Below are positions 3,849 to 45,171 of a stretch of DNA of 64,000 bases, one piece after another; positions within the stretch are counted from its first letter, which is position 1, and each line of letters begins with the position of its first letter. The notes beneath the pieces are model-generated. The model had not been told where the DNA came from. It was given only the letters and a program-made list of their open reading frames with translations, and made no database searches. The translations under genes and the position numbers were made by a program. The DNA comes from a bacterium (GTDB lineage: Bacteria > UBA8248 > JACPRG01 > G963555815). The DNA is taken from NCBI GenBank assembly GCA_965261595.1, contig CBDHDG010000006.1:800001-864000 (forward strand). The letters are read 5' to 3'.

Positions 3849-4097
3849 ATGCGCCTGTCGTGGAATGAGATTCGCGCCCGCGCCGCCGCCTTCGCGCGGG
3901 AATGGGCGGGCGAGGGCTACGAGAAGGGGCAGACCCAGCTCTTCTACAACGACTTCTTCGATGTCTTCGGCTTGTCCGTCCGCAGGGTGGCCGCCTTCGA
4001 GGAACCCGTCAGGAACCTCGACAACACGCACGGCTACATCGACCTGTTCTGGCCGGGCGTCCTGCTCGTCGAGCAGAAGAGCGCCGGGCGCGATCTA
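3849..4097 (+). pseudogene. N-terminal fragment of an MmeI-like (Type IIL/IIG) restriction-modification enzyme, cut by IS630
   Basis: MRLSWNEIRARAAAFAREW...YEKGQTQLFYNDFFDVFG...GYIDLFWPGVLLVEQKSAGRDL resembles the MmeI-family PD-(D/E)xK N-terminal domain. Confidence 0.8.
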
Positions 4098-5159: not shown

Positions 5160-5211
5160 GCATGATACTGTACTAAACATTACTGGCTATTTCAATGTTA
5201 CGGTCCACTAG
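4095..5211 (-). mobile_element. IS630-family insertion sequence (complete)
   Basis: CTAG at both ends (4095-4098, 5208-5211; TA duplication), imperfect TIRs TAGTTCCTTGTAACA / TAGTGGACCGTAACA, one transposase ORF. Confidence 0.93.
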
Positions 5212-5363
5212 GCGAGGTGTTGCTTGTGTATGCCACCGATGATCGCTATCTTCTGAGCAGCTAAAGTTACAGCGAACTACGCGACTTTCGAACAAACGCT
5301 CTGCTTCTAGCCAGCCCCAGAAGGAGCGCCTGGTAAACAGATGAAAGCGACCACCGTCGGGGA

Positions 5364-28620: not shown

Positions 28621-28922
28621 CTCCTCGGTCTCCAAGCCATACGATAAATCGACATCAGGCACCCCAACGAAAGATATCGCCAAGCGGCTATCAGAAACGG
28701 TCGAGCTTACCCCCGGCGCGGCCGGATTGAAAGCGGATTTCGCACCGGGATCATCCCGCAAACCCTTGGATCAATGAATCTTCGAAAGCACGCGCGGCCG
28801 GAAGACCCACCTTCGGCCAGCAGAAAATGGCATGAAAAGTGAATCTCCCTTGATTCCGGTGTTCCAACGTCCATGGAAACCGGAAGGCCGCTTCCCGGAC
28901 GCCGCAGACAGGGAGAGTTTTC

Positions 28923-30185
28923 TTGCAGCCGCAACCCCTCAAGGTCATGGTCGCCGTGGGCGCCCGGCCCAATTACATGAAGGCGGCCCCTCTGATCCGC
29001 GCCTTGACCGGCCCGTCAACCGCCGTGGAAACCGGCCAGCCACCTATCGAGCTGACCGTCACGCACACAGGACAGCATTACGAAGACGGCCTTTCCAGGA
29101 CGCTGTTCGAGGAGCTCTCTCTGCCTGCCGCCGATGTCAACCTGAATGTCGGCTCCGGGCCGCACGGGCGGCAGACCGGCCTCATCCTGCAACGCTTCGA
29201 ACCCGTTTTCGAAGAACAGTGGCCGGACGTTCTCGTCGTCGCGGGGGACGTCAACTCGACGCTGGCCTGCGCGCTGGTCGCGGCCAAGAGCTGGCGGCGG
29301 CTTCCCGGAGGCGGCTGGAAACGCCCGCGCATCGCCCACATCGAGGCCGGACTCCGCAGCTTCGATCCCACGATGCCCGAGGAGACCAACCGCAGACTGA
29401 CCGACGCCCTGTCCGACGACCTCCTCATCCACTCCCCCGAGGCGCGCGGGAACCTCCTGCGCGAAGGGGTCCGGGAGGACGACATCCTGGAGGTCGGCAA
29501 TCTCATGATCGACACCCTGGACCGGCTCCTGCCGCTCGCCCGGCGATCGGACATCTTCGTCCGCCTGGGCCTGCGGCTCGGCGGTGCGCCGGAAGAAGGG
29601 AAGCCGTACGCGCTGTTGACGCTTCACCGGCCGTCCAACGTGGACGATCCCGAGCTCTTCAAGAGGCTTCTGCGGGGGGCGGCGCGCATCTCCCCGGATC
29701 TGGAGATCATCTTCCCCATGCATCCCCGCGTCCGCAAGGCCGCGCCGAAAATCCTGGAAGCGCTTCACCGGGAGCGCGCCGGGCCCTTGGCGCCCATCCG
29801 GCTCATCGAGCCTTTGGGCTACCTCGATTTCATCGCCTTGATGGACCGGGCCGCGCTGGTCCTGACGGACTCGGGCGGCGTTCAGGAGGAGACAACCGCC
29901 CTGGGCGTCCCCTGCCTGACGCTCCGGGAAAACACCGAGCGGCCCGTGACAGTCACGATGGGAACAAACACCTTGGCGGGGATCGAGGAGGAACGGATCG
30001 TTCAGGAGGGCCGACGGTCCTTATCCGGAAACTCCATGCCTTCCTCCCGCCCTCCCCTGTGGGACGGACACGCCGGAGAGCGGGCGGCCGATCTTTTGGT
30101 GCGACGGACACTGGCGGCCTCGGCGGCCGGATACGAGTTGGCGCCCGCCTCTTTGGAACAGAAACAGATTGCGCTTCCCGTCTAA
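28923..30185 (+). CDS. wecB: UDP-N-acetylglucosamine 2-epimerase (non-hydrolysing)
   Basis: VGARPNYMK, HTGQHY, GDVNST, HIEAGLRS, PEETNR, TLHRPSNVD, TDSGGVQEE, RENTERP. Confidence 0.93.
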   Translation: MQPQPLKVMVAVGARPNYMKAAPLIRALTGPSTAVETGQPPIELTVTHTGQHYEDGLSRTLFEELSLPAADVNLNVGSGPHGRQTGLILQRFEPVFEEQWPDVLVVAGDVNSTLACALVAAKSWRRLPGGGWKRPRIAHIEAGLRSFDPTMPEETNRRLTDALSDDLLIHSPEARGNLLREGVREDDILEVGNLMIDTLDRLLPLARRSDIFVRLGLRLGGAPEEGKPYALLTLHRPSNVDDPELFKRLLRGAARISPDLEIIFPMHPRVRKAAPKILEALHRERAGPLAPIRLIEPLGYLDFIALMDRAALVLTDSGGVQEETTALGVPCLTLRENTERPVTVTMGTNTLAGIEEERIVQEGRRSLSGNSMPSSRPPLWDGHAGERAADLLVRRTLAASAAGYELAPASLEQKQIALPV

Positions 30186-30437: not shown

Positions 30438-31842
30438 TGGACCGCCCCTGGGTTATTGGACACTCGGGTGAGGGTATTCGACCTCATGCGGCCTCCGCAA
30501 CTTGAGCGAGTTTTTCCTGCCTTGCCTGGGCCGGCGTTCGGTAGCCGTAGCCCTCGAGAATCCAATGATGGTTGTACAGGTTCTTGAACTCAAGCAGCGC
30601 CCACCGCAGTTCCTCTACGGTGGCGAAAGAGCGCACCCACAGGAGATTCTCCTTCAAGATGCGGATAAACCACTCACAGTAGCCATTTCCCTCGGGCGCC
30701 CGCACGAAGCTGGGCGAACTGGTCATGCCCAGGTAGGCGATCTCCCGCTGAAAGTCATCGGACAGATAGGCGGGGCCGTGGTCGTGACGAACTTTAAGCC
30801 CCTCGGCGACGTCCGCCTCCAAGCCGGCGAAGCGCTCGGCGACCCCCTGCCGGATCGGCTCCAGGGCCTCGAAGCGGTTGCCGCTCTTGGCCGCATGGAT
30901 CCCCACGCAGTCCACCGAGCAGTGATCCACCGCCACGAACACCGAGGCCATCCCCTCCTCGGTGGTCACCGTCGTCGTCATGTCCGTGCCCCACATTCGG
31001 TCGGGCCGCTCGGTGCGGATGGTCCCGTTGTGGGCCTTGGGACCTCGGGGTTTGCCCACCCGGTGGGGGGCCTGAAGCCCCGCCTCCCGCATCAGGCGAC
31101 GCACCCGCTCCTTGCTGGTGCGGATGCCCGCGAAGCGCAGCCTCGCCCACACCTTGCGGTAGCCCTCGCCATGGAAGGGAGAGTCCTCCAGGACCTGCCG
31201 GATGTGGCCGAGGAGTTCCGCATCGGTGCACGGGCCCACAGGGCCGCGCTTATTGGGCGTGGGGCGTTCATGAACGGGGACCGCCTCTCGCCGCCGTTGC
31301 GCGTAGACCGTGGAGCGCGCCAAGCCCCAAAGGGCGCACACCCGCTTCAGGCCGTAGGCTCTGCCCGTGGAGGTGAAGCGGGCCTGACTCATCGCCTCCA
31401 CCTCCTGCCGGCTAAAGGGCGGCCGGCCTCCAGGCGGTCGATCTTCTCCCGCAGGACCTCGCCCTCCATCGTGAGTTCGCCCACCTTGGCCTTGAGCCGG
31501 GCGTTCTCCTCGGCCCGCTCATCCGCCGGGCGGGCTTTGAGCGCCGCCTCGCCCCCGCGAAGGAACGCCTCGCGCCAGGCGGAAAGCCGAGCCGCTGTCG
31601 TGCCCAACTCGCGGCAGAGCGTCTCCAGGCTCTCGCCCCGCAAAAGACGCAGGACCGCCTCCCGCTTGCGCCTGGCAGGAGAACCGACCCCGCTCACTGC
31701 GATGCCCTGGGGCCTTGGCTCCGTTCGCCCTGCGGGCGCCCTCCGCCAAAGCCCCCTCTTGCTTTTGTTCGTTCATCGCGACACCCCTTTCTCCATGAAT
31801 CATGGATCAATCGAGTGTCCAACAAAACCCTAGAGCGGGGGA
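30438..31842 (-). mobile_element. IS3-family insertion sequence, copy 3 (orfA frameshifted)
   Basis: Near-identical to copy 1; CCT on both flanks; extra C near 31671; orfB 30484-31392 keeps WGTDMT. Confidence 0.93.
30484..31392 (-). CDS. IS3-family transposase OrfB
   Basis: Same protein as copy 1 OrfB. Confidence 0.92.
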   Translation of the reverse strand: MSQARFTSTGRAYGLKRVCALWGLARSTVYAQRRREAVPVHERPTPNKRGPVGPCTDAELLGHIRQVLEDSPFHGEGYRKVWARLRFAGIRTSKERVRRLMREAGLQAPHRVGKPRGPKAHNGTIRTERPDRMWGTDMTTTVTTEEGMASVFVAVDHCSVDCVGIHAAKSGNRFEALEPIRQGVAERFAGLEADVAEGLKVRHDHGPAYLSDDFQREIAYLGMTSSPSFVRAPEGNGYCEWFIRILKENLLWVRSFATVEELRWALLEFKNLYNHHWILEGYGYRTPAQARQEKLAQVAEAA

Positions 31843-32053
31843 CCTAATTGTTGGGAGACCACTTCCATAACCGCTGGGCGGGAGGGATCCCGCTCAGCGG
31901 TTCATGCATGGGCGCTGTTGTAGGGGGAAGATTGTCCTTTTGCCCTCCGGTTCATAGGCCGCGATCCATATATAAACGGCTCACGACGCCGTGGGATACC
32001 CGCCCATTTGCTTGAGAGGAATTATGGGACCCGTTGTGACCAATTTGTGACCA
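31843..32053 (+). repeat. Shared non-coding module R1 (hairpin + conserved segment + TTGTGACCA tandem repeat)
   Basis: 31843-31985 aligns with 43972-44115; 31935-32032 aligns with 34722-34818 and 41464-41562. Confidence 0.85.
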
Positions 32054-32164
32054 CCCCTTCCTCTCAATGTGCCCTCATTCTCCCGTCAGCTTAAAAACCT
32101 GCTAAAATTCCCATCGTCAACCCGAAAAGATACAGACCCGCCCACCTGATGGGGGCAACACGTC

Positions 32165-34647
32165 ATGCGGTACCGGCGCACCGTCCTGATTGCCGTTCTG
32201 GCCTCAGTCCTTATTGCTCCCTCCCTGTTCGCCCAGACGCTGACGGTCAAGGTCCAACGGGGAAACGTGCGCTTCGGGCCTGGCAAGTCCTACCCCGTGA
32301 TCGGAAGGGTCCAAAAAGCCGATAACTTCCCCATCGAGGCCCGCCAGGGCGACTGGTTCAAGATCCTGCTGGAGACGGGCCGGGAGGGCTGGGTCTTCAA
32401 GTCTCTCGTCGAGGTCTCCGGTAAGCGGACGATTGGCGTCGTTCCTTTGGGTCCCACCCCATCGGCCTCCCGGCCTTACGGCGACTCCTGGGCCATCGTT
32501 GTGGGTATCAACCGGTATCGAAAACCGGCCCTGCGCCTCCACTACGCCGTCAACGACGCCCGGAGCGTCACGGCCGCCCTTCAGAAGATCGGCTTTCCCA
32601 AAAGAAACATCATCACCCTACTAGACGAGCGGGCCACGGCGCTGGCCATCCGCACGGCGTTCAACACCCTGATTACAAGGACACAGGGGCAAGACCGGGT
32701 ATTCATCTTTGTCGCGGCGCACGGTTTGACGCTCGACCGTCCGGGGGGCGGGGCGATGGGATACCTGCTTCCGGTGGGGGCGGACCCGGCCAACATTGTG
32801 GGGACGGCCATGCCGATGAGCGAGGTGAAGGACATGGCGTCGCTTCTCAAGGCGAAGCACGTCTTCTTTGCCGTGGACGCCTGCTTCTCAGGTCTTTTGG
32901 CCGCACGGAGCGTGCCTCGGGCGGAAAAGCGGCGTGGACGCGGCTTACCTGACCCGGGGCCGTCTGCGGCAGATCCTCACGGCGGGCGAGCGGGACCAGC
33001 CGGTCCTGGAGGAAGGGGGCCACGGCCTTTTCACCCGGCGGCTCCTGGAGGCGATGGAGGGCGAGGCGGACAATTCTCCCCGGGACGGCGTCCTCACGGC
33101 GATGGAGGTGGCGGCGTTCGTCCAGGGGCAGGTGATCGCCTCGTCCAGCAGCCGTCAGACGCCCTTTTTCGGGACGATGGACGGCGTGGGGCAGTTCGTC
33201 TTCACCGCGCCGGCCATTGGAAATCGTCCGGCTGTTTCTCCGCCTCCGGCAACGCCCCGGCCTCCTGTCGCCTCCATCCCCATGGCTGACCCATTTGCTG
33301 GTCTCGGAAGGGTAGTTAAAGACCCCGATGAATTTGCGGGGTTGGGTAGGAAGGGCACGGGAGACCTGTTCTTGAATTCGAAGCCCCCTGGGGCGGTGGT
33401 CTTCTTGGATGGAAAGCGTCTTTCGGGTCCCACGCCACTCTTGGTCGAGAAGGTCCCCGCCGGTGAGCACCGAATATTGGTCCGCAAGGGCGAGAAGCAT
33501 GGCGGGTTCCGGGACGTTCGGCTCAAAGCGGGTGAGTTGAAGAACCTCACTGTGAGCCTGGAACGCCTGAAGGGTGAGCTTTACGTCAAGGTGCGTCCCT
33601 TCGGTTCGGCAGTTCTCGTGGACGGCAAGCGGTTGGGGAAGTCGCCGCTCAAGACAAAGGTGAACCCCGGTGAACGTCAGGTTGAAGTGAGACAGGAGGG
33701 CTACCGGAGGTACAGCGGCCGAGTGAAGGTCGAATTCGGGAAAACCACGGAAGTCTCGCAGACCCTCGCCGCGCTCGCCACGGCTACGCTGGTGGTTTCC
33801 TCGACGCCTTCGGGGGCGGAGATTTTCATTGGGAAAAAATCAGTGGGCAAGACGCCGCGGGCGATTCGGCTCTATGAGGGGGAATACACCGTTCGATTCA
33901 GGAAGCCGGGTTACAAGCCTTCAAGCCAGAAGGCCCTCGTTCGCGGGGACAGGAAGAGCACGGTTGTTGCCGTCCTGGCCGTTGACCCGATCCCTCCCGG
34001 GATGGTCAAGGTCCCTGCGGGTTGGTTCATCATGGGGAGCGGAAAGTACGAAAGTGAGAAGCCGCGCCGCCGGGTTTACCTGAATGAGTTTTTCATCGAC
34101 AAGTATCCGGTGACGAATGTCCGGTTCCGGAGGTTCGGAAAACCAAAGAAGGATCACGGCTCGAAGTTCAACGGCACCCGTCAGCCTGTGCGTGGGTGTG
34201 ACTTGGAGTCAGGCACGGGATTATTGCGGATCCGTGGGCAAGCGCTTGCCCACGGAGGCCGAATGGGAGAAAGCGGCTCGTGGGGTGGACGGCCGGAAGT
34301 ATCCCTGGGGGAATCAGTGGGACCCCTCGAAGGTGATTTGGGATAAGAACAGCGGCGATAAGACACACCCCGTGGATCGGACGTACAACACCCACCGGAG
34401 CCCTTATGGGGCTGTGGACATGTCGGGGAACGTGTGGGAGTGGGTGGGTGACTGGTTCAAGGCGGATTATTACCGGACCGCCCCGGATCGCAACCCGAAG
34501 GGACCTGCCTCCAGCAGCAGGCGCGTTTTGCGCGGCGGTTCCTGGAGCAGCGACAATACGTCGAACTTCCGCGCGGCGAATCGCAACGATTGGCCTCCGG
34601 ACAACCGGGGCAGCTGGGTTTCGTTTCGTTGCGCCAAGGCTCCATAA
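32165..34647 (+). CDS. SH3 + caspase (peptidase C14) + PEGA repeats + FGE-sulfatase (C-type lectin fold) protein; probable DGR target; frameshifts near 32925 and 34190
   Basis: Signal peptide; NVRFGPG...GREGWV (SH3b); [16 protein letters not shown] and DACFSG dyad; [53 protein letters not shown]...FRCA. Confidence 0.88.
34480..34647 (+). repeat. DGR-type variable region VR1 (3' end of FGE-sulfatase gene)
   Basis: Homologous to 41224-41389 and 41904-42078; constant scaffold codons alternate with hypervariable codons. Confidence 0.75.
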
Positions 34648-34706
34648 TTACCCTTTGTCCTTTCGCCCTCTTACCCTTTGGGGGGTCCAGGGGGCTTGCC
34701 CCCTGG
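34648..34706 (+). promoter_or_regulatory. Pyrimidine-rich spacer and GC hairpin downstream of VR1 (DGR target-recognition-like element)
   Basis: CCCTTT repeats then CCAGGGGGC-TT-GCCCCCTGG (34687-34706); the hairpin recurs unchanged at 41430-41449. Confidence 0.7.
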
Positions 34707-34721
34707 TTGGTTTAGCGATTA

Positions 34722-34843
34722 GCCCTTTTTCCCTCCGTTCATATCCTCAAACCCATAATGATCCGGCTCGCGACGCCGTGGGGACCCGCCCATTCGCTTA
34801 AGAGGAATTATGGGACCCAAAGTAGGTGTCTATTCAGGTGTCT
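34722..34843 (+). repeat. Shared module R2 ending in AGGTGTCT tandem repeat
   Basis: CGACGCCGTGGG.ACCCGCCCATT.GCTT.AGAGGAATTATGGGACCC shared with R1; AGGTGTCT at 34824 and 34836. Confidence 0.85.
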
Positions 34844-34961
34844 TCTGAGGGTACACAAACCCACACACAGACACACAACCAGCACAAAGAGGTTTTCGCG
34901 GGAATCCAACAACAACGGGGATTTACGGGGGTTGGCCTGAGAATCCCGGAAGGCTTCTGAC

Positions 34962-35072
34962 GGATTTAATGTGCGCCGCCTAGAGGAAGGGCTGCCAGGA
35001 TGAAAAGCCGCAGGTCTGCCGGTTCAAGCCGAAGCATCGAGCTAACAGCGAAGACTCAAGAATGACCCCGCC
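34962..35072. ncRNA. Possible fragment of a structured RNA (6S/ssrS-like)
   Basis: GGTTCAAG...AGCGAAGACTCAAG loosely resembles the 6S RNA closing region; judged by eye only. Confidence 0.2.
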
Positions 35073-35083
35073 GCTTCTCCTCC

Positions 35084-35887
35084 TCAATCTATCAGGATCT
35101 GGCTGAGGAACAGCTTGGTGCGATCGTTCTGGGGGTTCTCGAAGAATCCATGGGGCTCGTTCTGCTCGATGATCTCGCCGCCGTCCATGAAGATGACACG
35201 GTCGGCGACGGTCTTGGCGAAGCCCATCTCATGGGTCACGACGAGCATGGTCATGCCGGTGCCGGCGAGTTCGATCATCACGTCCAGAACCTCCGTGATC
35301 ATCTCCGGATCCAAGGCCGAGGTCGGTTCGTCGAACAGCATGATCTTGGGCGACATGCAGAGCGCCCGCGCAATCACCACCCGCTGCTGCTGGCCGCCCG
35401 AAAGCTGGCCCGGGAACTTCTCTGCCTGTTCGGGTATCCGGACTCGCTCGAGATATTCCCGCGCCAATTCATTGGCCTCGGCCTTGGGCTTATTGCGCAC
35501 CCAGATCGGGCCCAATGTCAGATTCTCAAGCACCGTGAGATGGGAAAATAGATTGAAGTGCTGAAACACCATGCCGACTTCGCTGCGAATGGTGTGAATG
35601 TTCTTGAGATCGTTGGTGAGCTCGGTCCCGTCGACGAGGATCTGGCCCTGCTGGTGTTCTTCGAGCCGGTTTATGCAGCGGATCAGGGTGGACTTTCCAG
35701 ACCCCGACGGCCCGCAGATGACGATGCGCTCACCCTTATTGACGGTCAGGTTGATGTCCTTGAGCACATGGAAAGAACCGAACCATTTGTGGACACCCGT
35801 CATCTCGATCATGACGTCCTCGGAGACGGTCATGGTCTTGGTTGGGTGTTTGAGTCCGTCTTCCGATAAACCGGCTTTGTCATACAT
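35084..35887 (-). CDS. aapP: General L-amino acid ABC transporter ATP-binding protein
   Basis: [30 protein letters not shown]; last gene of the operon. Confidence 0.9.
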
Positions 35888-35928
35888 TATTATTTCTCCA
35901 ATCCTTACGTAAGATCCCCCGCCTAAGC

Positions 35929-37050
35929 CTAATGGCCGGTATCGAGTTTTCGCTCAAGAAAAAGCGAATACCTCGACATGCTGAAGCAGCAAATGAAGAA
36001 AAACAGCGCGACAAAAATATAGACCTCGCGAGCCAATCCTGCCCAGGCAGTGTCCGCCAACGACGCCCGGCCGACGCCCAGGGGATCGAACATACCTATA
36101 ATCAACACCAGCGTGGTGTCCTTGAAAAGCCCGATAAAGGTATTGACGATTCCAGGAATTGAAATCTTCAGCGCCTGCGGCAAAATAACCAGCCAGTGAG
36201 CCTTCAGGTAGGTTAGGCCAAGAGATTCGGCGGCTTCGTACTGGCCACTGGGAATTCCCTGCAACCCGCCACGAACGACTTCAGCAATATAACCCGCTGA
36301 AAACAGCGTCACCATAATCAGCACCCGCATAAGCAGGTCGAAGACTGTGCCCGGCGGCAGAAAGTAATTGAGCATCGTCGAAGCGATGAACAAAAGGGTG
36401 ATCAGGGGCACTCCGCGGATAAACTCGACGAACAAGACGCAAATAATCCTCAGAATCGGCATCTTCGACCGGCGTCCGAGGGCGAGGAGAATACCGATCG
36501 GAAGTGAGAACGATATGCCAGTGACGCCGATGATCAGTGTCAGCAAGATGCCACCGAATTGGTCGGTTTCAACTGGGCTCAAGCCGAAGCCCCCGACCAG
36601 GAGCCAGCCGGTAATGAACGGGAACGCCATCGCATACAAAAGCCCGACTTTTCGGCCTGGCATCTTATCGTAAAGCACCGGCACGATCGCCATTATCAGG
36701 AGCACGAACGACAGGTTCACCCGCCAGCGCAACGGTGCGGGATAGAACCCATAAACAAAAAGTCCCAGCCGATTTCTGATGAAGGCCCAGCAGGCGCCGC
36801 CCTCCGGCACCTCCATTTTGTCCCAGCATTCCTTGCGTGACTCTGCCGTCCAAACCGAATCCAAGAAGATCCACTCAAATAGCGGCGGTATCACCAACCA
36901 AAGGAACCAGATGGCCAAGAGGGTTAGCACCACGTTGAGCGGCGTAGATAGGAGGTTGTGTTTGACCCATCCGAGAACGCCAACTTCGGTGCGCGGTGGC
37001 GGCAATTCCGGATGCTGACCGGTTTCGTAGGTTTTCTCAACGTCAGCCAT
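35929..37050 (-). CDS. aapM: General L-amino acid ABC transporter permease
   Basis: [42 protein letters not shown]. Confidence 0.88.
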
Positions 37051-37053
37051 GGC

Positions 37054-38253
37054 TTATCTCTCCACCAGGGCCATCTTCTTGTTGTACCAATTCATGAATC
37101 CCGAGATCAGCAAAGAGATTGTGAGATACAGCAGAAGGACGATAATCATCGTCTCCATCTCTTTGCCCGTCTGCATCAGGGTAATCCCGCCGATCGTGGC
37201 GACGATATCCGTGTAGCCGATGGCGATCGCCAACGACGAGTTCTTGGTCAGGTTCAGATACTGGCTGGTCAGCGGCGGGATGATGACGCGGAGCGCCTGG
37301 GGTATGATGATCAGCCTGAGCGTTCTGTTGGGACGAAGCCCGAGCGCATAAGCGGCCTCGGTCTGCCCGTGGCTGACCGCGAGGATTCCCGAACGGACGA
37401 TCTCCGCGATAAAGCACGATGTGTAATAGGAAAGCGCCAGCCACAGAGCGATGAACTCGGGTTTGATTGCCAGCCCGCCGTTGAAATTGAACCCCTTCAG
37501 CTCCGGAATACCCCAAGAAAGCGGCATGCCAGCGGAAAGAAAAGCGGCCGCCATCATCACCACGATCACTCCAGTCGATATCCAGAAAACGGGGTAAACC
37601 CGACTCGTCTCACCCTGGATTTTTTTCGCCCAGCGTCTGAAAAAGAACACAAAAACAACCGAGATCACGAAGGCCGCCGCGACGATCCCGGCACCGGGTT
37701 CCAAAACGGGTTGGGGAATGAAGAATCCTCTGTTCGTGAGAAAGAAGATATCAGCAAAATTTATTGCCTTCTTTGGCACCGGCAAATGGATGACGACCAG
37801 CCCGTAGATGAACAGGATGTGCAAAAGGACAGGAACGTTGCGCGTGAATTCCAGGAAGCAATAAACGATACGGTTGACCAGCCAGTTCGTGGAGAGCCTG
37901 AGGATCCCCATTATGAAACCCATTATTGTCGTGAGAACTATACTGCAAGCTGCAACCAGCAGAGTGTTGAGAATTCCTACGAAGGCAGCCCGTAGATGAG
38001 TGGACCTTGAGCTGTATTCGATAAATGGAGAAAACGTTATGTCGTAACCAGCCGGGTACAAGAGGAAGCTGAAGCTAAACTCTTTTCCTACCGTTTCGAG
38101 GTTGATTACGACGTTACGGAGGATAAGGGCGAGGGCAGCGAATATCACCGTCAGCGTCACGATCTGGATGATGACGGACCGGGCTTTATGGTTTCTCCAA
38201 AGGCGTGTGACCAGGTTGCGGGTGTCAGGACCGGTCTCGACAATTCTGGCCAT
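37054..38253 (-). CDS. aapQ: General L-amino acid ABC transporter permease
   Basis: VGILNTLLVA, EFTRNVPVLL, GFNFNGG, AEIVRSGILAVSHGQTEAA, YLNLTKNSSL. Confidence 0.88.
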   Translation of the reverse strand: MARIVETGPDTRNLVTRLWRNHKARSVIIQIVTLTVIFAALALILRNVVINLETVGKEFSFSFLLYPAGYDITFSPFIEYSSRSTHLRAAFVGILNTLLVAACSIVLTTIMGFIMGILRLSTNWLVNRIVYCFLEFTRNVPVLLHILFIYGLVVIHLPVPKKAINFADIFFLTNRGFFIPQPVLEPGAGIVAAAFVISVVFVFFFRRWAKKIQGETSRVYPVFWISTGVIVVMMAAAFLSAGMPLSWGIPELKGFNFNGGLAIKPEFIALWLALSYYTSCFIAEIVRSGILAVSHGQTEAAYALGLRPNRTLRLIIIPQALRVIIPPLTSQYLNLTKNSSLAIAIGYTDIVATIGGITLMQTGKEMETMIIVLLLYLTISLLISGFMNWYNKKMALVER

Positions 38254-38547
38254 GGCCAACAACGATCTCCTTCACGGGCTCATCAAGACCAAAAAAACCC
38301 AATATTGATACAATTCACGGGGGTGATCTTTGCTGCTGATCACTAGTGAGCTGCACCGTGGTGAGGGTCATTTCAAATAACCAGGGACGCCATCCAAGAC
38401 AAAACGTTCCCAGCCTTCGGTCGGGAAAATTGGTCCATTGGGTGTCTCAGGCACAATCAAATAACAACAAACATGGAATTTCAAGGGTCAATAGGTGCAG
38501 ACGCGTACCGGGACCCGATAGGTCGCCAGCACGCTTTTAGATTGATC

Positions 38548-39956
38548 TGGACCGCCCCTGGGTTATTTATTGGACACTCGGGTGAGGGTATTCGACCTCA
38601 TGCGGCCTCCGCAACTTGAGCGAGTTTTTCCTGCCTTGCCTGGGCCAGCGTTCGGTAGCCGTAGCCCTCGAGAATCCAATGATGGTTGTACAGGTTCTTG
38701 AACTCAAGCAACGCCCACCGCAGTTCCTCTACGGTGGCGAAAGAGCGCACCCACAGGAGATTCTCCTTCAAGATGCGGATGAACCACTCACAGTAGCCAT
38801 TTCCCTCGGGCGCCCGCACGAAGCTGGGCGAACTGGTCATGCCCAGGTAGGCGATCTCCCGCTGAAAGTCATCGGACAGATAGGCGGGGCCGTGGTCGTG
38901 ACGAACTTTAAGCCCCTCGGCGACGTCCGCCTCCAAGCCGGCGAAGCGCTCGGCGACCCCCTGCCGGATCGGCTCCAGGGCCTCGAAGCGGTTGCCGCTC
39001 TTGGCCGCATGGATCCCCACGCAGTCCACCGAGCAGTGATCCACCGCCACGAACACCGAGGCCATCCCCTCCTCGGTGGTCACCGTCGTCGTCATGTGCG
39101 TGCCCCACATTCGGTCGGGCCGCTCGGTGCGGATGGTCCCGTTGTGGGCCTTGGGACCTCGGGGTTTGTCCACCCGGTGGGGGGCCTGAAGCCCCGCCTC
39201 CCGCATCAGGCGACGCACCCGCTCCTTGCTGGTGCGGATGCCCGCGAAGCGCAGCCTCGCCCACACCTTGCGGTAGCCCTCGCCATGGAAGGGAGAGTCC
39301 TCCAGGACCTGCCGGATGTGGCCGAGGAGTTCCGCATCGGTGCACGGGCCCACAGGGCCGCGCTTATTGGGCGTGGGGCGTCCATGAACGGGGACCGCCT
39401 CTCGCCGCCGTTGCGCGTAGACCGTGGAGCGCGCCAAGCCCCAAAGGGCGCACACCCGCTTCAGGCCGTAGGCTCTGCCCGTGGAGGTGAAGCGGGCCTG
39501 ACTCATCGCCTCCACCTCCTGCCGGCTAAAGGGCGGCCGGCCTCCAGGCGGTCGATCTTCTCCCGCAGGACCTCGCCCTCCATCGTGAGTTCGCCCACCT
39601 TGGCCTTGAGCCGGGCGTTCTCCTCGTCCCGCTCATCCGCCGGGCGGGCTTTGAGCGCCGCCTCGCCCCCGCGAAGGAACGCCTCGCGCCAGGCGGAAAG
39701 CCGAGCCGCTGTCGTGCCCAACTCGCGGCAGAGCGTCTCCAGGCTCTCGCCCCGCAAAAGACGCAGGACCGCCTCCCGCTTGCGCCTGGCAGGAGAACCG
39801 ACCCCGCTCACTGCGATGCCCTGGGGCCTTGGCTCCGTTCGCCCTGCGGGCGCCCTCCGCCAAAGCCCCCTCTTGCTTTTGTTCGTTCATCGCGACACCC
39901 CTTTCTCCATGAATCATGGATCAATCGAGTGTCCAACAAAACCCTAGAGCGGGGGA
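38548..39956 (-). mobile_element. IS3-family insertion sequence, copy 4 (orfA frameshift, Asp to His), between aapJ and aapQ
   Basis: TSD GATC; 4-nt duplication in one TIR (GGTTATTTATTGG). Confidence 0.93.
38598..39506 (-). CDS. IS3-family transposase OrfB (WGTHMT variant)
   Basis: Near-identical to the other copies. Confidence 0.9.
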   Translation of the reverse strand: MSQARFTSTGRAYGLKRVCALWGLARSTVYAQRRREAVPVHGRPTPNKRGPVGPCTDAELLGHIRQVLEDSPFHGEGYRKVWARLRFAGIRTSKERVRRLMREAGLQAPHRVDKPRGPKAHNGTIRTERPDRMWGTHMTTTVTTEEGMASVFVAVDHCSVDCVGIHAAKSGNRFEALEPIRQGVAERFAGLEADVAEGLKVRHDHGPAYLSDDFQREIAYLGMTSSPSFVRAPEGNGYCEWFIRILKENLLWVRSFATVEELRWALLEFKNLYNHHWILEGYGYRTLAQARQEKLAQVAEAA

Positions 39957-39977
39957 GATCAACAATCAGTCGGTCTT

Positions 39978-40997
39978 CTAACGGAACGGCGGCGAATACT
40001 GCAGGCCGCCATTCGTCCACAAGGCATTTTGCCCACGAGGGAGACCGATAGGCGTTTTGGTGCCAATATTGCGCTCAAAGATCTCGCCGTAGTTACCGAC
40101 GAACTTGATGATATTGTACGCCCAGTCATTGCTCAGGCCCAACTCTTTACCCTGGCTACCCTCAACGCCCAAGAGACGCAAGACTTCGGGGTCTTTGGAG
40201 CTTTTCATCTTATCGACATTAGCCTGCGTGACGCCCTTTTCCTCAGCCGTAATCGTCGCGTTGAGAACCCAGGTTATAATATCAGACCACTGGTCGTCAC
40301 CTTGACGGGTGGCGGGACCCAGGGGCTCTTTCGAGATGATCTCTGGCAGGATGATGTGATTCTGCGGATCAGAGAACGTTGAACGGGTGGCGGCTAGACC
40401 TGAGGCGTCGGTGGTGTAAACGTCGCACCGTCCAGAAGAGTAGTTCTGCCGCGCCTCCTCGTTGGTCTCGATGGGTACGGCCTCATACTTCATGCCATTG
40501 GCGTGGAAGTAATCGGCTAGGTTGAGTTCAGTTGTTGTGCCGGTTTGGATGCAGACCGAAGCGCCGTTAAGTTCCTTAACGCTCTTGACACCGATCGCCT
40601 TCTTCACCATAAAGCCTTGGCCATCATAGTAGTTTACGCCATGGAATCGCAACTTAACGCCGACGTCGCGAGAGAAGGTGATGGTGGTGTTCCGCCACAG
40701 TACGTCGCCCTCACCTGAGTTGAGCTTGGTGAACCGGGTCTTGCCGGTCGCCGTCACCGCCTTGATCTTGCTTGCATCTCCCAGTACCGCCGCGGCAGTC
40801 GCCCGGCAGAAATCGATGTCGAAGCCTTTCCAAACGCCGCTCGCGTCCGGATAAGCAAAGCCGGCGATGCCGGTGCTTACGACGCAGCGCAACACACCGC
40901 GGGACTTGACGTCATCCAAGGTTCCGGCCCCGGCGCCAACCGGCCCGAGCGCCACGGCCATCGCCGCGCCTACGACCATCAACTTTAGAGTTTTCAC
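39978..40997 (-). CDS. aapJ: General L-amino acid ABC transporter substrate-binding protein
   Basis: Signal peptide, GFDIDFCRA, NYYDGQGFMV, GTTTELNLADYF, ISKEPLGP, GNYGEIFERN, NALWTNGGLQYSPPFR. Confidence 0.92.
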   Translation of the reverse strand: MKTLKLMVVGAAMAVALGPVGAGAGTLDDVKSRGVLRCVVSTGIAGFAYPDASGVWKGFDIDFCRATAAAVLGDASKIKAVTATGKTRFTKLNSGEGDVLWRNTTITFSRDVGVKLRFHGVNYYDGQGFMVKKAIGVKSVKELNGASVCIQTGTTTELNLADYFHANGMKYEAVPIETNEEARQNYSSGRCDVYTTDASGLAATRSTFSDPQNHIILPEIISKEPLGPATRQGDDQWSDIITWVLNATITAEEKGVTQANVDKMKSSKDPEVLRLLGVEGSQGKELGLSNDWAYNIIKFVGNYGEIFERNIGTKTPIGLPRGQNALWTNGGLQYSPPFR

Positions 40998-41223
40998 TGC
41001 TTGCCCTCCCAGTTTGTCGGTATGTGACTAAATATGTTCAGCCTCCAAGATCGGACAAAGATTCGCGCCTACACGAATCGCCTCAACGCCCTGATTCGGA
41101 TAATTACCCGAACGCAGCGGCCTCACGGTGCCCGGATCAGATTTAGATCTTACGCTTCTGAGTCGGACAGGGCAAGGGGTAATATATAGCACAGGCCAGG
41201 AGTGGATGCAAGTAGCTGTCTCG

Positions 41224-41449
41224 GCCGCCCGCAACCCGAAGGGCCCATCCTCGGGCACGTTCCGCGTGGTTCGTGGCGCCTCGTGGTTCTACGTCAGTCC
41301 GTCACTCTTCCGCGCGGCGTTCCGGATCTGGTACCCAACTGGGCTTCACGTATGGCAACGTGGGTTTTCGTTGCGCCAAGGCTCCTTAAATTACCCTTTG
41401 CCCTTTCGCCCTTTTACCCTTTGGGGGGTCCAGGGGGCTTGCCCCCTGG
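41224..41449 (+). repeat. Orphan DGR-type variable-region cassette VR2 with stop, spacer and hairpin
   Basis: ARNPKGPSSGTFRVVRGASWFYVSPSLFRAAFRIWY/QLGFTYGNVGFRCAKAP* (one extra base); no upstream FGE gene. Confidence 0.85.
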
Positions 41450-41463
41450 CGGGTTTAGCGATT

Positions 41464-41588
41464 AGCCCTTTTGTCCCTGCGTTCATAGGCCACGACCCAT
41501 AGATATAGATCGCACGATGCCAGGGGGTCCCGCCCCTTCGCCGTGGAGAAGATAGGGGACCCATGCTGTGCCTGTTTTCGTGCCTGTT
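41464..41588 (+). repeat. Shared module R3 ending in GTGCCTGTT tandem repeat
   Basis: GCCCTTTTGTCCCTGCGTTCAT identical to R4; ends GGGACCC then GTGCCTGTT at 41568 and 41580. Confidence 0.8.
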
Positions 41589-41695
41589 GGCTAAGCATTA
41601 GGAGATATACCGAGATAGATCGGAGCGGCGGACAATCCCTTATGGTTATTGGGAAACCCTTGATTTTTCTATGGTTTCCGTGCCACCATTCTCTT

Positions 41696-41752
41696 GATTC
41701 AGGGTCTAGTGGGGGAAACCTCGTGGGAGTTCGAGTCTCCCCTTCGGCACCA
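41696..41752 (+). other. 3' half of tRNA-Leu(CAG); probable att duplication
   Basis: GATTCAGGGTCTAGTGGGGGAAACCTCGTGGGAGTTCGAGTCTCCCCTTCGGCACCA has anticodon loop, long variable arm, T-arm and CCA, but no D-arm or 5' acceptor strand upstream. Confidence 0.85.
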
Positions 41753-41903
41753 TAAAATTCAAGCGTTTACAGGATGGGCGCGTTGCTTGCTTTCGGGATA
41801 TTTCTTTTCGCGTCGCCTGCGCAACCCGCATATGCGAATCGAAACTGTGCGACTTCCAGCGAACTCCATTCAGCACTCGGGCAAGTTTCTTTGAACTATC
41901 CTT

Positions 41904-42078
41904 TACCAAAACGCGCCCGCCCGTAATCCAAAGGGACCTGCCTCGAGCAGCTGGCGCGTGGTTCGCGGCGGCTCGTGGGGCAACCCTCAATCCAACGGGC
42001 TTCCGCGCGGCGATCCGGAGCGGGAGCCGTCCGGGCGGCAGGTACGTCGACCTGGGTTTTCGTTGCGCCATGGCTCCT
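41904..42078 (+). repeat. Orphan DGR-type variable-region cassette VR3 (no hairpin)
   Basis: [58 protein letters not shown] (one extra base). Confidence 0.85.
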
Positions 42079-42440
42079 TCACCGGGGCCGAAACCCTGAC
42101 CTTAAATAACCCTTTGCCAATCCCGATAACCAACCTTCCCCGTCATTCTCGCAGATCCAAATGGGAGAAAATCAGATGACAATCGAGAATCGAATCGCGG
42201 CGCTGGAGAAAAGGTGCAAAAGGCTGGGCAAGACCCTTGTGGGGGTAGGCACCCTGGCTCTTTTTGCCGTTGTCGCCGGTACGGCCGGGTGGACGGTGGC
42301 GTATACGGGCGCCATCAGCCCATCGAGCATCACGACGAGATTGATTATTCTAGAGGATTCAGCCGGAAAGACGCTCCCCCGCTCTAGGGTTTTGTTGGAC
42401 ACTCGATTGATCCATGATTCATGGAGAAAGGGGTGTCGCG

Positions 42441-42827
42441 ATGAACGAACAAAAGCAAGAGGGGGCTTTGGCGGAGGGCGCCCGTAGGGCGAACGGAGCC
42501 AAGGCCCCAGGGCATCGCAGTGAGCGGGGTCGGTTCTCCTGCCAGCGCAAGCGGGAGGCGGTCCTGCGTCTTTTGCGGGGCGAGAGCCTGGAGACGCTCT
42601 GCCGCGAGTTGGGCACGACAGCGGCTCGGCTTTCCGCCTGGCGCGAGGCGTTCCTTCGCGGGGGCGAGGCGGCGCTCAAAGCCCGCCCGGCGGATGAGCG
42701 GGACGAGGAGAACGCCCGGCTCAAGGCCAAGGTGGGCGAACTCACGATGGAGGGCGAGGTCCTGCGGGAGAAGATCGACCGCCTGGAGGCCGGCCGCCCT
42801 TTAGCCGGCAGGAGGTGGAGGCGATGA
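42441..42827 (+). CDS. IS3-family transposase OrfA
   Basis: Same protein as copy 1 OrfA. Confidence 0.88.
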   Translation: MNEQKQEGALAEGARRANGAKAPGHRSERGRFSCQRKREAVLRLLRGESLETLCRELGTTAARLSAWREAFLRGGEAALKARPADERDEENARLKAKVGELTMEGEVLREKIDRLEAGRPLAGRRWRR

Positions 42828-43732
42828 GTCAGGCCCGCTTCACCTCCACGGGCAGAGCCTACGGCCTGAAGCGGGTGTGCGCCCTTTGGGGCTTGGCGCG
42901 CTCCACGGTCTACGCGCAACGGCGGCGAGAGGCGGTCCCCGTTCATGAACGCCCCACGCCCAATAAGCGCGGCCCTGTGGGCCCGTGCACCGATGCGGAA
43001 CTCCTCGGCCACATCCGGCAGGTCCTGGAGGACTCTCCCTTCCATGGCGAGGGCTACCGCAAGGTGTGGGCGAGGCTGCGCTTCGCGGGCATCCGCACCA
43101 GCAAGGAGCGGGTGCGTCGCCTGATGCGGGAGGCGGGGCTTCAGGCCCCCCACCGGGTGGGCAAACCCCGAGGTCCCAAGGCCCACAACGGGACCATCCG
43201 CACCGAGCGGCCCGACCGAATGTGGGGCACGCACATGACGACGACGGTGACCACCGAGGAGGGGATGGCCTCGGTGTTCGTGGCGGTGGATCACTGCTCG
43301 GTGGACTGCGTGGGGATCCATGCGGCCAAGAGCGGCAACCGCTTCGAGGCCCTGGAGCCGATCCGGCAGGGGGTCGCCGAGCGCTTCGCCGGCTTGGAGG
43401 CGGACGTCGCCGAGGGGCTTAAAGTTCGTCACGACCACGGCCCCGCCTATCTGTCCGATGACTTTCAGCGGGAGATCGCCTACCTGGGCATGACCAGTTC
43501 GCCCAGCTTCGTGCGGGCGCCCGAGGGAAATGGCTACTGTGAGTGGTTCATCCGCATCTTGAAGGAGAATCTCCTGTGGGTGCGCTCTTTCGCCACCGTA
43601 GAGGAACTGCGGTGGGCGCTGCTTGAGTTCAAGAACCTGTACAACCATCATTGGATTCTCGAGGGCTACGGCTACCGAACGCCGGCCCAGGCAAGGCAGG
43701 AAAAACTCGCTCAAGTTGCGGAGGCCGCATGA
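42824..43732 (+). CDS. IS3-family transposase OrfB (WGTHMT variant)
   Basis: Near-identical to the other copies. Confidence 0.9.
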   Translation: MSQARFTSTGRAYGLKRVCALWGLARSTVYAQRRREAVPVHERPTPNKRGPVGPCTDAELLGHIRQVLEDSPFHGEGYRKVWARLRFAGIRTSKERVRRLMREAGLQAPHRVGKPRGPKAHNGTIRTERPDRMWGTHMTTTVTTEEGMASVFVAVDHCSVDCVGIHAAKSGNRFEALEPIRQGVAERFAGLEADVAEGLKVRHDHGPAYLSDDFQREIAYLGMTSSPSFVRAPEGNGYCEWFIRILKENLLWVRSFATVEELRWALLEFKNLYNHHWILEGYGYRTPAQARQEKLAQVAEAA

Positions 43733-43971
43733 GGTCGAATACCCTCACCCGAGTGTCCAATAACCCAGGGGCGGTCCAACGCGGCTTAGGCTCCGTGGGT
43801 CAGATGGCACTGTCAGAGCATGTGATTCAGCTGGAAAGACGCGGCTTCAGCTCCATGGGCATGGTAGTATCAGAGCATACGACTCAGCCGGGAAGTGGCG
43901 GGTTAAGCTCTATGGGGAAACCGGAAAGATCTCTTTCAAAACTCTAAACGCCAGAGGAACGGTTTCTCATC

Positions 43972-44115
43972 CCTAATTGTTAGGAGACCACTTCCATGCC
44001 AGCCGGGCAGGAAGGATCCCGCTCGGCGGTTCATGCATGGGTGTAGCTGTAGGGGGAAGGTTGCCCTTTTGTCCCTGCGTTCATCGGCTCGCAATCCATG
44101 TGTATCTGGCTCGCG
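43972..44115 (+). repeat. Shared module R4
   Basis: CCTAATTGTTAGGAGACCACTTCCAT...GGATCCCGCTCGGCGGTTCATGCATGGG...TGTAGGGGGAAG aligns with R1. Confidence 0.85.
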
Positions 44116-44471
44116 CCATCAGCAGGACAACCTTCGTGAGTTCCATTTCCCCCAAAATCGAGGGTGCGGGTTGCATGGAAGATGCCCCCCCTACGTTTGC
44201 CCATTCGATTTCCCCGAATGCCCTGATGGTGGCCAATAATAATGTCAGGATTATCATCATTGGGTATCAGATAATAGGTAAGGAGTGGAGGAAACGGGGC
44301 CGAAACCCCCGAAAATGAGTGAATTGGGGCCTGGGATGGCCTTTTGGGCTGATTCTCGAGCGAGTGTGAGGGCCTAAAAACCTCTCCTGGCCCCCCTCTA
44401 GAAACCTCCATTTTCGTCTGTCATTACTGGCTATATCTTTGATTCTAATACGCGTGCGCGTGCGGGGGTAG

Positions 44472-44819
44472 TCAGGCGGGGGCAGTCCAGGCAAGTCTCC
44501 CGGTTTCGAATTCCTCCCTGAGCCGATTCATGGCATGGGTGAGTATCCCCAATTCTGAAAATCCCGTCTCCCTGGCTTCCGCCCGGAGCCATTCCCCATC
44601 TTCTCCCGGAATTTCTATCCTCCCCTCCCGGCCGTTCTCTTGTCTCGGGGCCTCGGGGGTGTCTGCACCGTTTCCCTCCTGGGCGCGGGCCATCTCCAGG
44701 GCATGGCAAACCGTCTCGGAGAGAGACCGCTTGCCTTGGGTGCCCGGCCCCTGCATCCAGTCCTTGAGTTCCTGGGGGATTCGGACGGTAATGGTTGCGT
44801 CTTTGACTACATATTCCAC
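44472..44819 (-). CDS. Putative ribbon-helix-helix DNA-binding protein (two RHH-like segments)
   Basis: ATITVRIPQELKDWM...RSLSETVCHALE and RIEIPGEDGEWLRAEARETGFS. Confidence 0.55.
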   Translation of the reverse strand: MEYVVKDATITVRIPQELKDWMQGPGTQGKRSLSETVCHALEMARAQEGNGADTPEAPRQENGREGRIEIPGEDGEWLRAEARETGFSELGILTHAMNRLREEFETGRLAWTAPA

Positions 44820-45074
44820 GTTGTCTTACCTTTCCCGCGGAGCGGGGTTCACAAGAGACTCAATGTAGGACATGGGACATGGAGCTGACAACGGGTGGGG
44901 CCAGTCAGTGTCCATCCGACACCCCCAATCCAACGGTGTGAAAAACGGTGTGAATCGGAACCCCAACGCCTGCATATCACTTCACATGGTTGCATGCGGT
45001 TGCTGGTTTGTAAACGCCTCACAAATCCTGTAACATCAAGGATATCCGCTGGATTCGTAAACATGGCCTTGCTC

Positions 45075-45171
45075 GGAAGCGCATAGGGTCCCGGTGGCCC
45101 TCCTGGACTTCAAATCCAGTGTTCCGGCTTAACCCCCGGTAGGTGGGTTCGACTCCCACGCGCTTCCGCCA
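45075..45171 (+). tRNA. selC: tRNA-Sec (TCA)
   Basis: 8-bp acceptor stem GGAAGCGC/GCGCTTCC, 6-bp D-stem, CTGGA-CTTCAAA-TCCAG anticodon arm, long variable arm, GGTTCGACTCC, GCCA end. Confidence 0.95.

What the first reader, a model, noticed from the sequence alone, without database searches (positions are those of the whole stretch)
31843..45171. Tandem array of related element ends: one shared module joined to different integrase arm-like repeats and RNA-gene att fragments
Seen: four diverged same-orientation copies of a 100-200 bp non-coding module (R1 31843, R2 34722, R3 41464, R4 43972). R1-R3 lose similarity right after GGGACCC and are followed within a few bp by a different 11-12 bp period tandem repeat (TTGTGACCA x2, AGGTGTCT x2, GTGCCTGTT x2); another such pair (AACGGTGTGAA x2, 44932-44954) precedes tRNA-Sec. 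About 110 bp after the R3 repeat lies a tRNA-Leu 3' half. Known: tyrosine-integrase islands have tandem arm-type sites near a duplicated tRNA 3' fragment. Inference: a family of small integrase-less or decayed elements sharing a terminal module, carrying DGR target genes next to the att end and using different integration specificities, has accreted here. This coupling of DGR targets to swappable att ends is the best candidate for an undescribed system.
Basis: partly seen in the sequence, partly recalled or inferred. Interest (0 to 1): 0.75.

Follow-up and report, generated by a model that had tools for sequence, protein, structure and literature searches.

The report
Shared end of swappable tRNA islands
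A conserved 97-base DNA signal marks one end of a family of small mobile elements that insert into several different tRNA genes and trade docking sites, metabolic genes and hypermutated surface-protein genes with each other; the signal is likely what a helper element recognises to move them between cells.

Summary
The repeat is three modules; the core, B (97 bp, ending GGGACCC), occurs 9 times in this genome, 11 in a congener, once in a sister genus and on 15 metagenome contigs. A tandem repeat follows 20 of 28 copies (background 1.4%), and a half-tRNA lies 132-164 bp on in 11 of 28 (six tRNA types). Three repeat types recur at integrase 3' ends, so they are arm-type sites. A 7.5-kb relative at tRNA-Phe has its own integrase and no replication, relaxase or terminase gene found. 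The window is a decayed composite island 5' of tRNA-Sec. The R2 gene is a true remote DGR target (14 of 15 differences at template adenines), but only 8 of 28 B copies follow such a target and the RT is broken. B has no RNA covariation, fixed block spacing (44±1 bp) and is shuffled throughout, not at one cut. Best reading: a cis mobilisation signal (cos-like 45%, oriT 20%) that doubles as a recombination linker; no helper found. The scan noted integrase-less tRNA cassettes on other DNA, not this module.

The parts
28923..30185 (+). wecB, host gene on the left flank; lies just upstream of tRNA-Sec in the congener G001
   Evidence: NCBIfam TIGR00236 above cut-off; G001 sequence upstream of tRNA-Sec matches 28761-29997 at 90.5%
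30438..31842 (-). IS3-like insertion sequence forming the left junction of the island; flanks do not match, so the true left end was likely deleted
   Evidence: 178 near-full copies in the genome; no 4-bp target duplication, unlike the two other copies in the island
31843..31935 (+). Module A of R1: 3' flank of the beta-repeat gene with a strong hairpin (31870-31901)
   Evidence: z -5.05 against shuffles; follows the beta-repeat stop in other copies
31936..32032 (+). Module B, copy R1
32034..32053 (+). Arm-type tandem TTGTGACCA x2; no att core follows
   Evidence: only other tandem in the genome is 90 bp from an integrase beside a tRNA-Ala fragment, C4:590235
32165..34647 (+). SH3-caspase-PEGA-FGE (C-type lectin fold, by family knowledge) DGR target gene, frameshifted in this assembly
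   Evidence: Pfam; the extra base near 32931 is absent from contigs of 4 of 4 runs
34520..34641 (+). DGR variable region matching the template repeat at G000:C7:827378-827499
   Evidence: 14 of 15 mismatches at template adenines, binomial P 1.3e-7
34648..34722 (+). Module H: C/T tract and GC hairpin (34687-34706) after the variable region
34723..34818 (+). Module B, copy R2
34824..34967 (+). tRNA-Phe-type element end: arms AGGTGTCT x2 (34824-34843) and spacer up to the core, here joined to non-tRNA DNA
   Evidence: 98.7% identical over 149 bp to the end that joins the tRNA-Phe 5' half in G001
35084..40997 (-). Amino-acid ABC transporter cluster (cargo), with an IS copy at 38548-39956
   Evidence: NCBIfam; the binding-protein end of the same block precedes H, or H and B, in L032 and L063, which carry other ends
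41230..41385 (+). Orphan FGE tail with a variable region of a second template lineage
41389..41465 (+). Module H (hairpin 41430-41449)
41466..41562 (+). Module B, copy R3
41568..41588 (+). Tandem GTGCCTGTT x2, arm-like; no cognate integrase found
   Evidence: single occurrence in G000 and the G001 loci held
41698..41752 (+). tRNA-Leu(CAG) 3' half (att fragment); the intact gene is about 597 kb away
   Evidence: 55 of 55 bp identical to C6:244445
41922..42077 (+). Second orphan FGE tail
42161..43977 (+). Beta-repeat protein gene, split by an IS copy (42375-43778); a recurrent gene of the family
43972..44121 (+). R4: module A plus the first 58 bp of B (truncated)
44472..44819 (-). 115-aa ORF, tandem ribbon-helix-helix-like by eye; conserved in related bacteria
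   Evidence: 13 homologues; no PHROG or NCBIfam hit
44932..44954 (+). Tandem AACGGTGTGAA x2, likely the arms of a tRNA-Sec 5'-targeting end
   Evidence: same layout as the Leu(CAA) and Leu(TAA) 5' ends in L061 and L069; no cognate integrase found
45008..45036 (+). Sigma-70-like promoter read by eye (TTGTAA-17-TAACAT) that would drive tRNA-Sec
   Evidence: coordinates; the promoter-like motif seen upstream of tRNA-Sec in G001, G004 and G006 was not found in G000
45075..45171 (+). Intact tRNA-Sec, the anchor of the island

Best explanation
The four repeats are the right-hand ends of a family of small tRNA-integrating elements, and their shared 97-bp module B is likely a DNA signal, most likely a cos-like packaging site, that lets a helper mobilise them. 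Shown: B is followed by integrase arm sites and, 132-164 bp on, by a half-tRNA; the other end carries a tyrosine integrase with an RHH/HTH gene; between them lie variable cargo genes, including remote DGR targets. Shown: every sub-segment of B is shuffled against its neighbours and flanks. Inferred: elements excise as circles, recombine with one another through short shared blocks (FGE tail, H, beta-repeat gene, A, B), and so swap cargo and integration modules. The window is such a composite, inferred to have entered through its tRNA-Sec 5' end (which supplies a new promoter) and to have lost its integrase end to an IS-linked deletion. Predicted: read on the minus strand B would be cosQ-like GGGTCCC, a nick segment GGGCGGGWCCCC, and a small-terminase site at +49 to +70.
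For: Arms: the R1 tandem recurs only beside an integrase and tRNA-Ala fragment; GGTGTCCA x2 lies at the 3' ends of three integrases and after B in L033; the Phe motif recurs inverted at the integrase end of L035. Half-tRNAs in 11 of 28 informative copies against 0.4% background. Complete element L035:4116-11611 with integrase and RHH, and no replication, relaxase or terminase domain among its scanned ORFs, so a cis signal would be needed for transfer. B is a DNA-type site: no Rfam match, no covariation, no stable fold, yet the GTTCAT-to-GGGWCCC distance is 43-45 bp in 25 of 25 copies (44 in 20) across variable sequence. The layout parallels lambda cos fetched; lambda R3 is at bp 50-65 and N15 has a single R3 at 48-60 (PMC9026076, passages). 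Lambda-type small terminases occur in this host's satellites. Mosaicism. Synteny at tRNA-Sec.
Against: No helper was found. B is absent from IMG/VR and GenBank phages. The two cos-like sites seen before real small-terminase genes in this phylum read CACGGGTCCT and are otherwise unlike B. GGGTCC-N17-26-GGGCGG occurs 83 times in the genome, 5 of them in B, so that likeness alone is weak. The cosQ-to-nick distance would be 18-20 bp and variable, against 23 in lambda. No terminase or rpp-like gene lies on the cosB side of any scanned copy. Divergent copies keep GGGWCCC but not GGGCGG. The tRNA-Phe island of G000 has the same arms without B. No excision junction was seen, though only contigs were available. 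No cognate integrase was found for the R3 and Sec repeats.
Confidence: 0.45

Rival explanations
1. B is an origin of transfer used in trans by a relaxase, making these oriT-only integrative mobilisable elements; the att side of B is the leading region.
For: In the two most divergent settings (G003:C152, G000:C7:87465) B is followed by a shared promoter/leader and an ardC-like antirestriction gene, typical of leading regions. RHH-type genes lie in the elements. G000 holds 9 TrwC matches.
Against: No TrwC match in G001, which has 11 B copies, nor PF03432 in G000, G001 or G003; other relaxase families were not searched. No B in the 520 bp upstream of four TrwC genes or near any. No conserved hairpin next to a fixed nick. 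No B near 81 other ardC loci or in 40 of those genomes. Crossovers are not confined to one point.
Confidence: 0.2
2. B is a binding platform for an element-encoded regulator or accessory protein (RHH, HTH, excisionase) or an origin-like site; two GGGWCCC sites three helical turns apart bind a dimer that controls excision or transcription, with no role in cell-to-cell transfer.
For: The invariant core is two GGGWCCC 29-32 bp apart. An excisionase-like or HTH gene points away from B in L061, L067, L071 and L035.
Against: B lies outside the outermost arm pair, whereas accessory sites of lambda-type att lie between arms and core (recalled). It is kept with unrelated integrases. The C5 Phe island has the same integrase and RHH without B. 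No sigma-70 consensus found around R3.
Confidence: 0.25
3. B has no current function: it is a relic of one ancestral element kept alike by gene conversion among many decayed copies.
For: Many copies are truncated or lack an att core; recombination at short homologies is frequent.
Against: Conservation is in blocks with fixed spacing while spacers diverge, and it persists in a sister genus, which fits selection better than conversion.
Confidence: 0.1

Closest known systems
Tycheposons and the 'cryptic' integrase-plus-excisionase elements of Prochlorococcus (bioRxiv 10.1101/2020.12.28.424599; abstract start and passages read)
   Same: Small elements at several tRNA genes, flanked by partial tRNAs, carrying metabolic cargo, piling up with degenerate copies into islands; half of that paper's elements have only integrase and excisionase.
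   Different: Here one non-coding end module is shared across at least six tRNA specificities, both 3'- and 5'-targeting, and DGR targets are among the cargo; no replication genes in the B-bearing complete element; different host phylum.
Gram-negative PICIs with lambda-like cos (PMC9026076; passages read) and P4-like satellites, whose cargo hotspot is near cos (PMC13586616; passages read)
   Same: Integrase at one end, a conserved cis site near the other, variable cargo beside it; B's block layout parallels cosQ-cosN-R3.
   Different: PICI cosQ/cosN are nearly identical to the helper's with matching spacing and are followed by rpp; B has 18-20 bp spacing, no rpp/terS beside it, no primase, and no helper is known.
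oriT-only integrative mobilisable elements (iOriT) and other hitchers (PMC11389934; passages read)
   Same: Integrase plus a short cis motif as the only mobility features; that review notes such motifs are often unknown.
   Different: No matching relaxase or nick motif identified.
Chromosomal DGRs with FGE-sulfatase (CLec) targets and remote targets (PMC5758913; passages read)
   Same: TR after the RT, adenine-specific differences, FGE targets with added domains, targets far from the RT.
   Different: That survey argues remote targets are cellular and not inherited with phages; here a remote target rides on a tRNA-integrating element.

Membership tests
tRNA-targeting tyrosine-integrase element (lambda-type att) | Tyrosine integrase next to an intact tRNA | tested here: met
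   Met for the relative L035 (403 aa, PF00589) and C2:195104; none in the window island
tRNA-targeting tyrosine-integrase element (lambda-type att) | Duplicated tRNA part at the far end | tested here: met
   11 of 28 informative copies, six tRNA types
tRNA-targeting tyrosine-integrase element (lambda-type att) | The same tandem arm motif on both sides of the core | tested here: met
   Phe, Met/Glu and R1/Ala types; not found for the R3 and Sec repeats
tRNA-targeting tyrosine-integrase element (lambda-type att) | Excision to a circle | tested here: inconclusive
   No circle junction in contigs of 7 runs; contigs drop rare forms
Gram-negative PICI with lambda-like cos | cosQ and cosN near-identical to a helper phage, same spacing | tested here: not met
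   6 of 7 cosQ and 8 of 12 cohesive-end bases match lambda, spacing 18-20 against 23; unlike the host's own terminase-linked sites
Gram-negative PICI with lambda-like cos | rpp/terS beside cos and a primase-replicase module | tested here: not met
   None by Pfam in scanned B-bearing loci
Gram-negative PICI with lambda-like cos | Packaging by a helper phage | not testable with these tools
   No B in IMG/VR or GenBank phages
oriT-only IME | oriT recognised by a relaxase of a helper | tested here: inconclusive
   TrwC in G000 but not G001; B not beside it
Tycheposon | Hallmark recombination and replication genes | tested here: not met
   L035 has integrase, RHH and HTH only
Tycheposon | Membership of the tycheposon integrase clade | not tested
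   No tree built
DGR remote target | VR differs from a TR almost only at adenines | tested here: met
   14 of 15 for 34520-34641; not met for 41922-42077 against this TR (23 A, 19 non-A)
DGR remote target | Intact RT in the genome | tested here: not met
   RT at C7:827.5-828.8 kb is cut by an IS, frameshifted and partly duplicated; no PF00078 match in G001
DGR remote target | Accessory avd gene | not tested
   No family search run
Structured RNA or IS/MITE end | Rfam match, covariation, or link to a transposase with target duplication | tested here: not met
   flanks are arms and cargo, not duplicated targets

The most novel reading that the evidence does not exclude
An undescribed family of minimal hitchhiking elements whose only transfer determinant is a shared cos-like site, which serves at once as packaging signal and as the joint through which integration modules for many tRNAs, host metabolic operons and DGR-hypermutated surface genes are recombined, spreading DGR targets apart from their reverse transcriptase.
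Probability: 0.4. Interest if true: 0.72.

Novelty: new variant of a known kind. Interest (0 to 1): 0.52.

Why it matters
How integrase-only genomic islands move between cells is an open question, because their cis signals are usually unknown (PMC11389934, passages). Here a candidate signal is defined to the base across more than 30 copies, with fixed geometry, so it can be tested directly. It also shows a route by which remote DGR targets travel without the retroelement, and how one element backbone can change its tRNA target by recombination next to the arm sites. The components themselves (tRNA islands, arms, FGE-type DGR targets) are known, the copies in the window are decayed, and the distribution is narrow.

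Tried and rejected
Structured RNA: no Rfam hit, no covariation, folding no better than shuffles. IS or MITE end, decayed ORF: rejected; flanks are arms and cargo, and length is kept without a reading frame. One site-specific cut at GGGACCC: rejected, all segments are shuffled. Obligate DGR link: rejected. Phage sources: 0 exact hits, 3 and 11 loose hits that do not score against the B profile, and only 22-34 bp chance hits in GenBank phages. ardC neighbourhoods in other taxa: no B. GpA terminase fragments in G000 and G003 have no B beside them. Three weak model hits lie inside host coding genes and were dropped. The empty site of the R2 junction could not be found. The protein atlas gave no answer, leaving the beta-repeat and RHH-like proteins without a fold-level lead; long homologues of the beta-repeat protein hit phage repeat families of mostly unknown function. 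Nine paper searches listed no description of this module; subscription journals and supplements were not searched.
Full report
What is in the window. Genome-wide BLAST and profile searches split them into three modules. A (31843-31935, 43972-44062) is the 3' flank of a beta-repeat gene and holds a 15-bp hairpin (z -5.05). H follows FGE-type variable regions. B, 97 bp, runs from CCCTTTTG through GTTCAT, CCAT and GGGGWCCCGCCC to GGGACCC. R1 is A+B, R2 and R3 are H+B, R4 is A plus 58 bp of B. Contigs from independent public runs span the R1, R2 and R3 junctions with 0-2 differences.

Distribution of B. A sequence-only model built from 25 copies matches 3 of 61 related genomes. In the family search it gives 10 matches in G000, 12 in the congener G001 and 2 in G003 of another genus; one weak match per genome lies inside a host coding gene and was dropped, leaving 9, 11 and 1. 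An exact pattern found 16 stretches on 15 metagenome contigs, none in IMG/VR. Looser patterns gave 3 and 11 viral stretches that do not score against the profile. None of 40 genomes chosen for a related ardC gene matched. Source labels of relatives point to Nitrospinota; the sponge association comes from an earlier scan note and was not tested.

What follows B. Of 28 copies ending in GGGACCC, 20 have a perfect direct repeat of 7 bp or more, period 10-13, starting within 25 bp; 1.4% of 20,000 random positions do (two rows are duplicates, and kin are not independent). Of 33 rows, four had under 200 bp of flank and one was cut in the wrong orientation; 11 of the remaining 28 have a 35-55 bp tRNA half starting 132-164 bp after GGGACCC (background 0.4%): Met, Leu(CAG) and Ala(GGC) 3' halves, Leu(CAA) and Leu(TAA) 5' halves, and Phe 5' antisense. 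The repeats behave as arm-type sites. The R1 tandem recurs once in the genome, 90 bp from an integrase 3' end and beside a tRNA-Ala fragment; GGTGTCCA x2 lies at the 3' ends of the tRNA-Met and tRNA-Glu integrases and after B in L033; the R2 motif recurs inverted in the last codons of the tRNA-Phe integrase. No partner was found for the R3 or Sec repeats.

A complete relative. G001:C9:4116-11611 runs from a tRNA-Phe 5' fragment to the intact tRNA-Phe. It holds B (3' two-thirds), a formamidase gene, A, the beta-repeat gene, an FGE gene, CsgG-TPR, DUF1989, a small HTH, an RHH and a 403-aa tyrosine integrase; no replication, relaxase or terminase domain was found among the ORFs scanned. Its end is 98.7% identical to the 149 bp after R2. 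G000:C2 has a similar, IS-broken element at tRNA-Met. Cargo is mostly metabolic. The G000 tRNA-Phe island has the same integrase and arms, a large primase/helicase-like ORF (likeness recalled, no family hit) and no B.

The DGR link. The variable region at 34520-34641 differs from the template repeat at C7:827378-827499 at 15 places, 14 of them template adenines (P 1.3e-7). It is a true remote target. The RT is cut by an IS and frameshifted, and none was found in G001. The tail at 41922-42077 has 19 non-adenine differences, so it belongs to another template. Among 11 related regions, 29 of 33 adenine columns vary against 21 of 89 others (the window's two orphan tails were not in that set). The link to B is optional: 8 of 28 B copies directly follow such a region, and 2 of 9 regions in G000 directly precede B.

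How the array arose. In G001 the DNA upstream of tRNA-Sec matches window 28761-29997 (wecB), so about 30.4-45.07 kb is an island 5' of tRNA-Sec. G001 is itself deleted there, so no pristine empty site was seen. The island's right end has an arm-like pair 120 bp before the tRNA and a promoter-like sequence read by eye, the layout of the 5'-supplying Leu ends; the promoter-like motif of relatives was not found in G000. The left junction is an IS without target duplication. The Phe, Leu(CAG) and R1-type ends are not at their tRNAs, so I infer they arrived as parts of a composite. The same amino-acid ABC block is followed by the Leu(CAG) end here, a Phe end in L063 and a third end in L032. Across 22 non-redundant copies, similarity in one segment barely predicts the next (Mantel r 0.14-0.27 for neighbours, -0.04 to 0.11 otherwise); 0 of 4 pairs with near-identical middle segments share the spacer, and 5 of 10 pairs with near-identical spacers carry unrelated ends. 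This fits recombination at short homologies all along B, not one cut.

What B does. It is not a structured RNA. Its blocks keep fixed distances: 43-45 bp from GTTCAT to the inner GGGWCCC in 25 of 25 copies, and 29-32 bp between the two GGGWCCC. That is the signature of a protein-DNA site under selection. On the minus strand it reads GGGTCCC, 18-20 bp, GGGCGGGWCCCC, an A/T-rich tract, and a conserved block at +49 to +70; lambda has GGGTCCT, 23 bp, its 12-base cohesive end, and R3 at 50-65 (PMC9026076 passages). Against this: the six-plus-six pattern occurs 83 times in the genome; the spacing differs and varies; the cos-like sites before real small terminases in this phylum are different; no terminase gene adjoins B; and no phage carries it. 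For oriT, two divergent copies precede an ardC-like gene with a shared leader, but no relaxase tracks with B. I put cos-like at 0.45, a regulatory or accessory site at 0.25, oriT at 0.20 and a relic at 0.10.

Comparison and novelty. The elements work like the cryptic, integrase-plus-excisionase tRNA elements described with tycheposons (10.1101/2020.12.28.424599, passages) and like hitchers in general (PMC11389934, passages). They fail the PICI and tycheposon membership tests that I could run. Remote FGE targets are known (PMC5758913, passages), but as cellular genes. Nine searches of the open literature (listings only, except the five papers read in passages) showed no account of this module. 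The scan holds notes on integrase-less tRNA cassettes in other genomes and none matching B by sequence. Verdict: a real, new variant of a known kind. The unusual part is one end signal shared across many integrase specificities; its function is untested.

Noticed in passing
L041:7174-12815 (G000:C6, just upstream of the window): PICI-like satellite at tmRNA: P4-type integrase, Toprim primase, 612-aa ORF and a lambda-type small terminase preceded by a cosQ-like CACGGGTCCT; the same motif precedes a homologue in G014.
   Followed up: partly
L061:2312-2490: A Leu(CAA)-type end is fused head-to-head with a Phe-type end at their shared anticodon-loop core, suggesting cross-talk between integrases of different specificity.
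   Followed up: no
L061, L066, L069; window 44932-45075: Several ends supply a tRNA 5' half in sense orientation (Leu CAA, Leu TAA, probably Sec), while the Phe type leaves the 5' half antisense; both are the less usual 5'-duplicating mode.
   Followed up: partly
window 32931 and 32521: Contigs of 4 of 4 runs lack one base at 32931, and 3 of 4 at 32521, so the target gene may be less broken in the population or mis-assembled here.
   Followed up: no
L048:6572-8734 (G000:C5): 720-aa ORF in the tRNA-Phe island, primase/helicase-like by eye (recalled likeness, no Pfam, PHROG or NCBIfam hit), followed by GCGGTTAC repeats and an excisionase remnant; this island has the Phe arms but no B.
   Followed up: partly
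window 42161-43977; L047:9380-9964: Unnamed protein with an N-terminal coiled-coil-like stretch, one hydrophobic helix and about 20-residue beta-rich repeats; 44 close homologues, and weaker likeness to repeats of large phage proteins.
   Followed up: partly
G000:C7:827250-827235 and module A: A 14-bp stretch downstream of the DGR template repeat matches the 5' arm of the module A hairpin in some copies; may be chance.
   Followed up: no
whole genome: 178 near-full, more than 97% identical copies of one IS3-like element; 63 tyrosine-recombinase matches and 9 TrwC matches.
   Followed up: no
window 3849-9839: MmeI fragment and a 1491-aa type ISP restriction-modification gene inside the tmRNA-linked island.
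   Followed up: no
L220/L224 (G001:C64): In G001 wecB is cut at its 3' end just upstream of tRNA-Sec, and about 1.1 kb of extra genes lie downstream of the tRNA.
   Followed up: no
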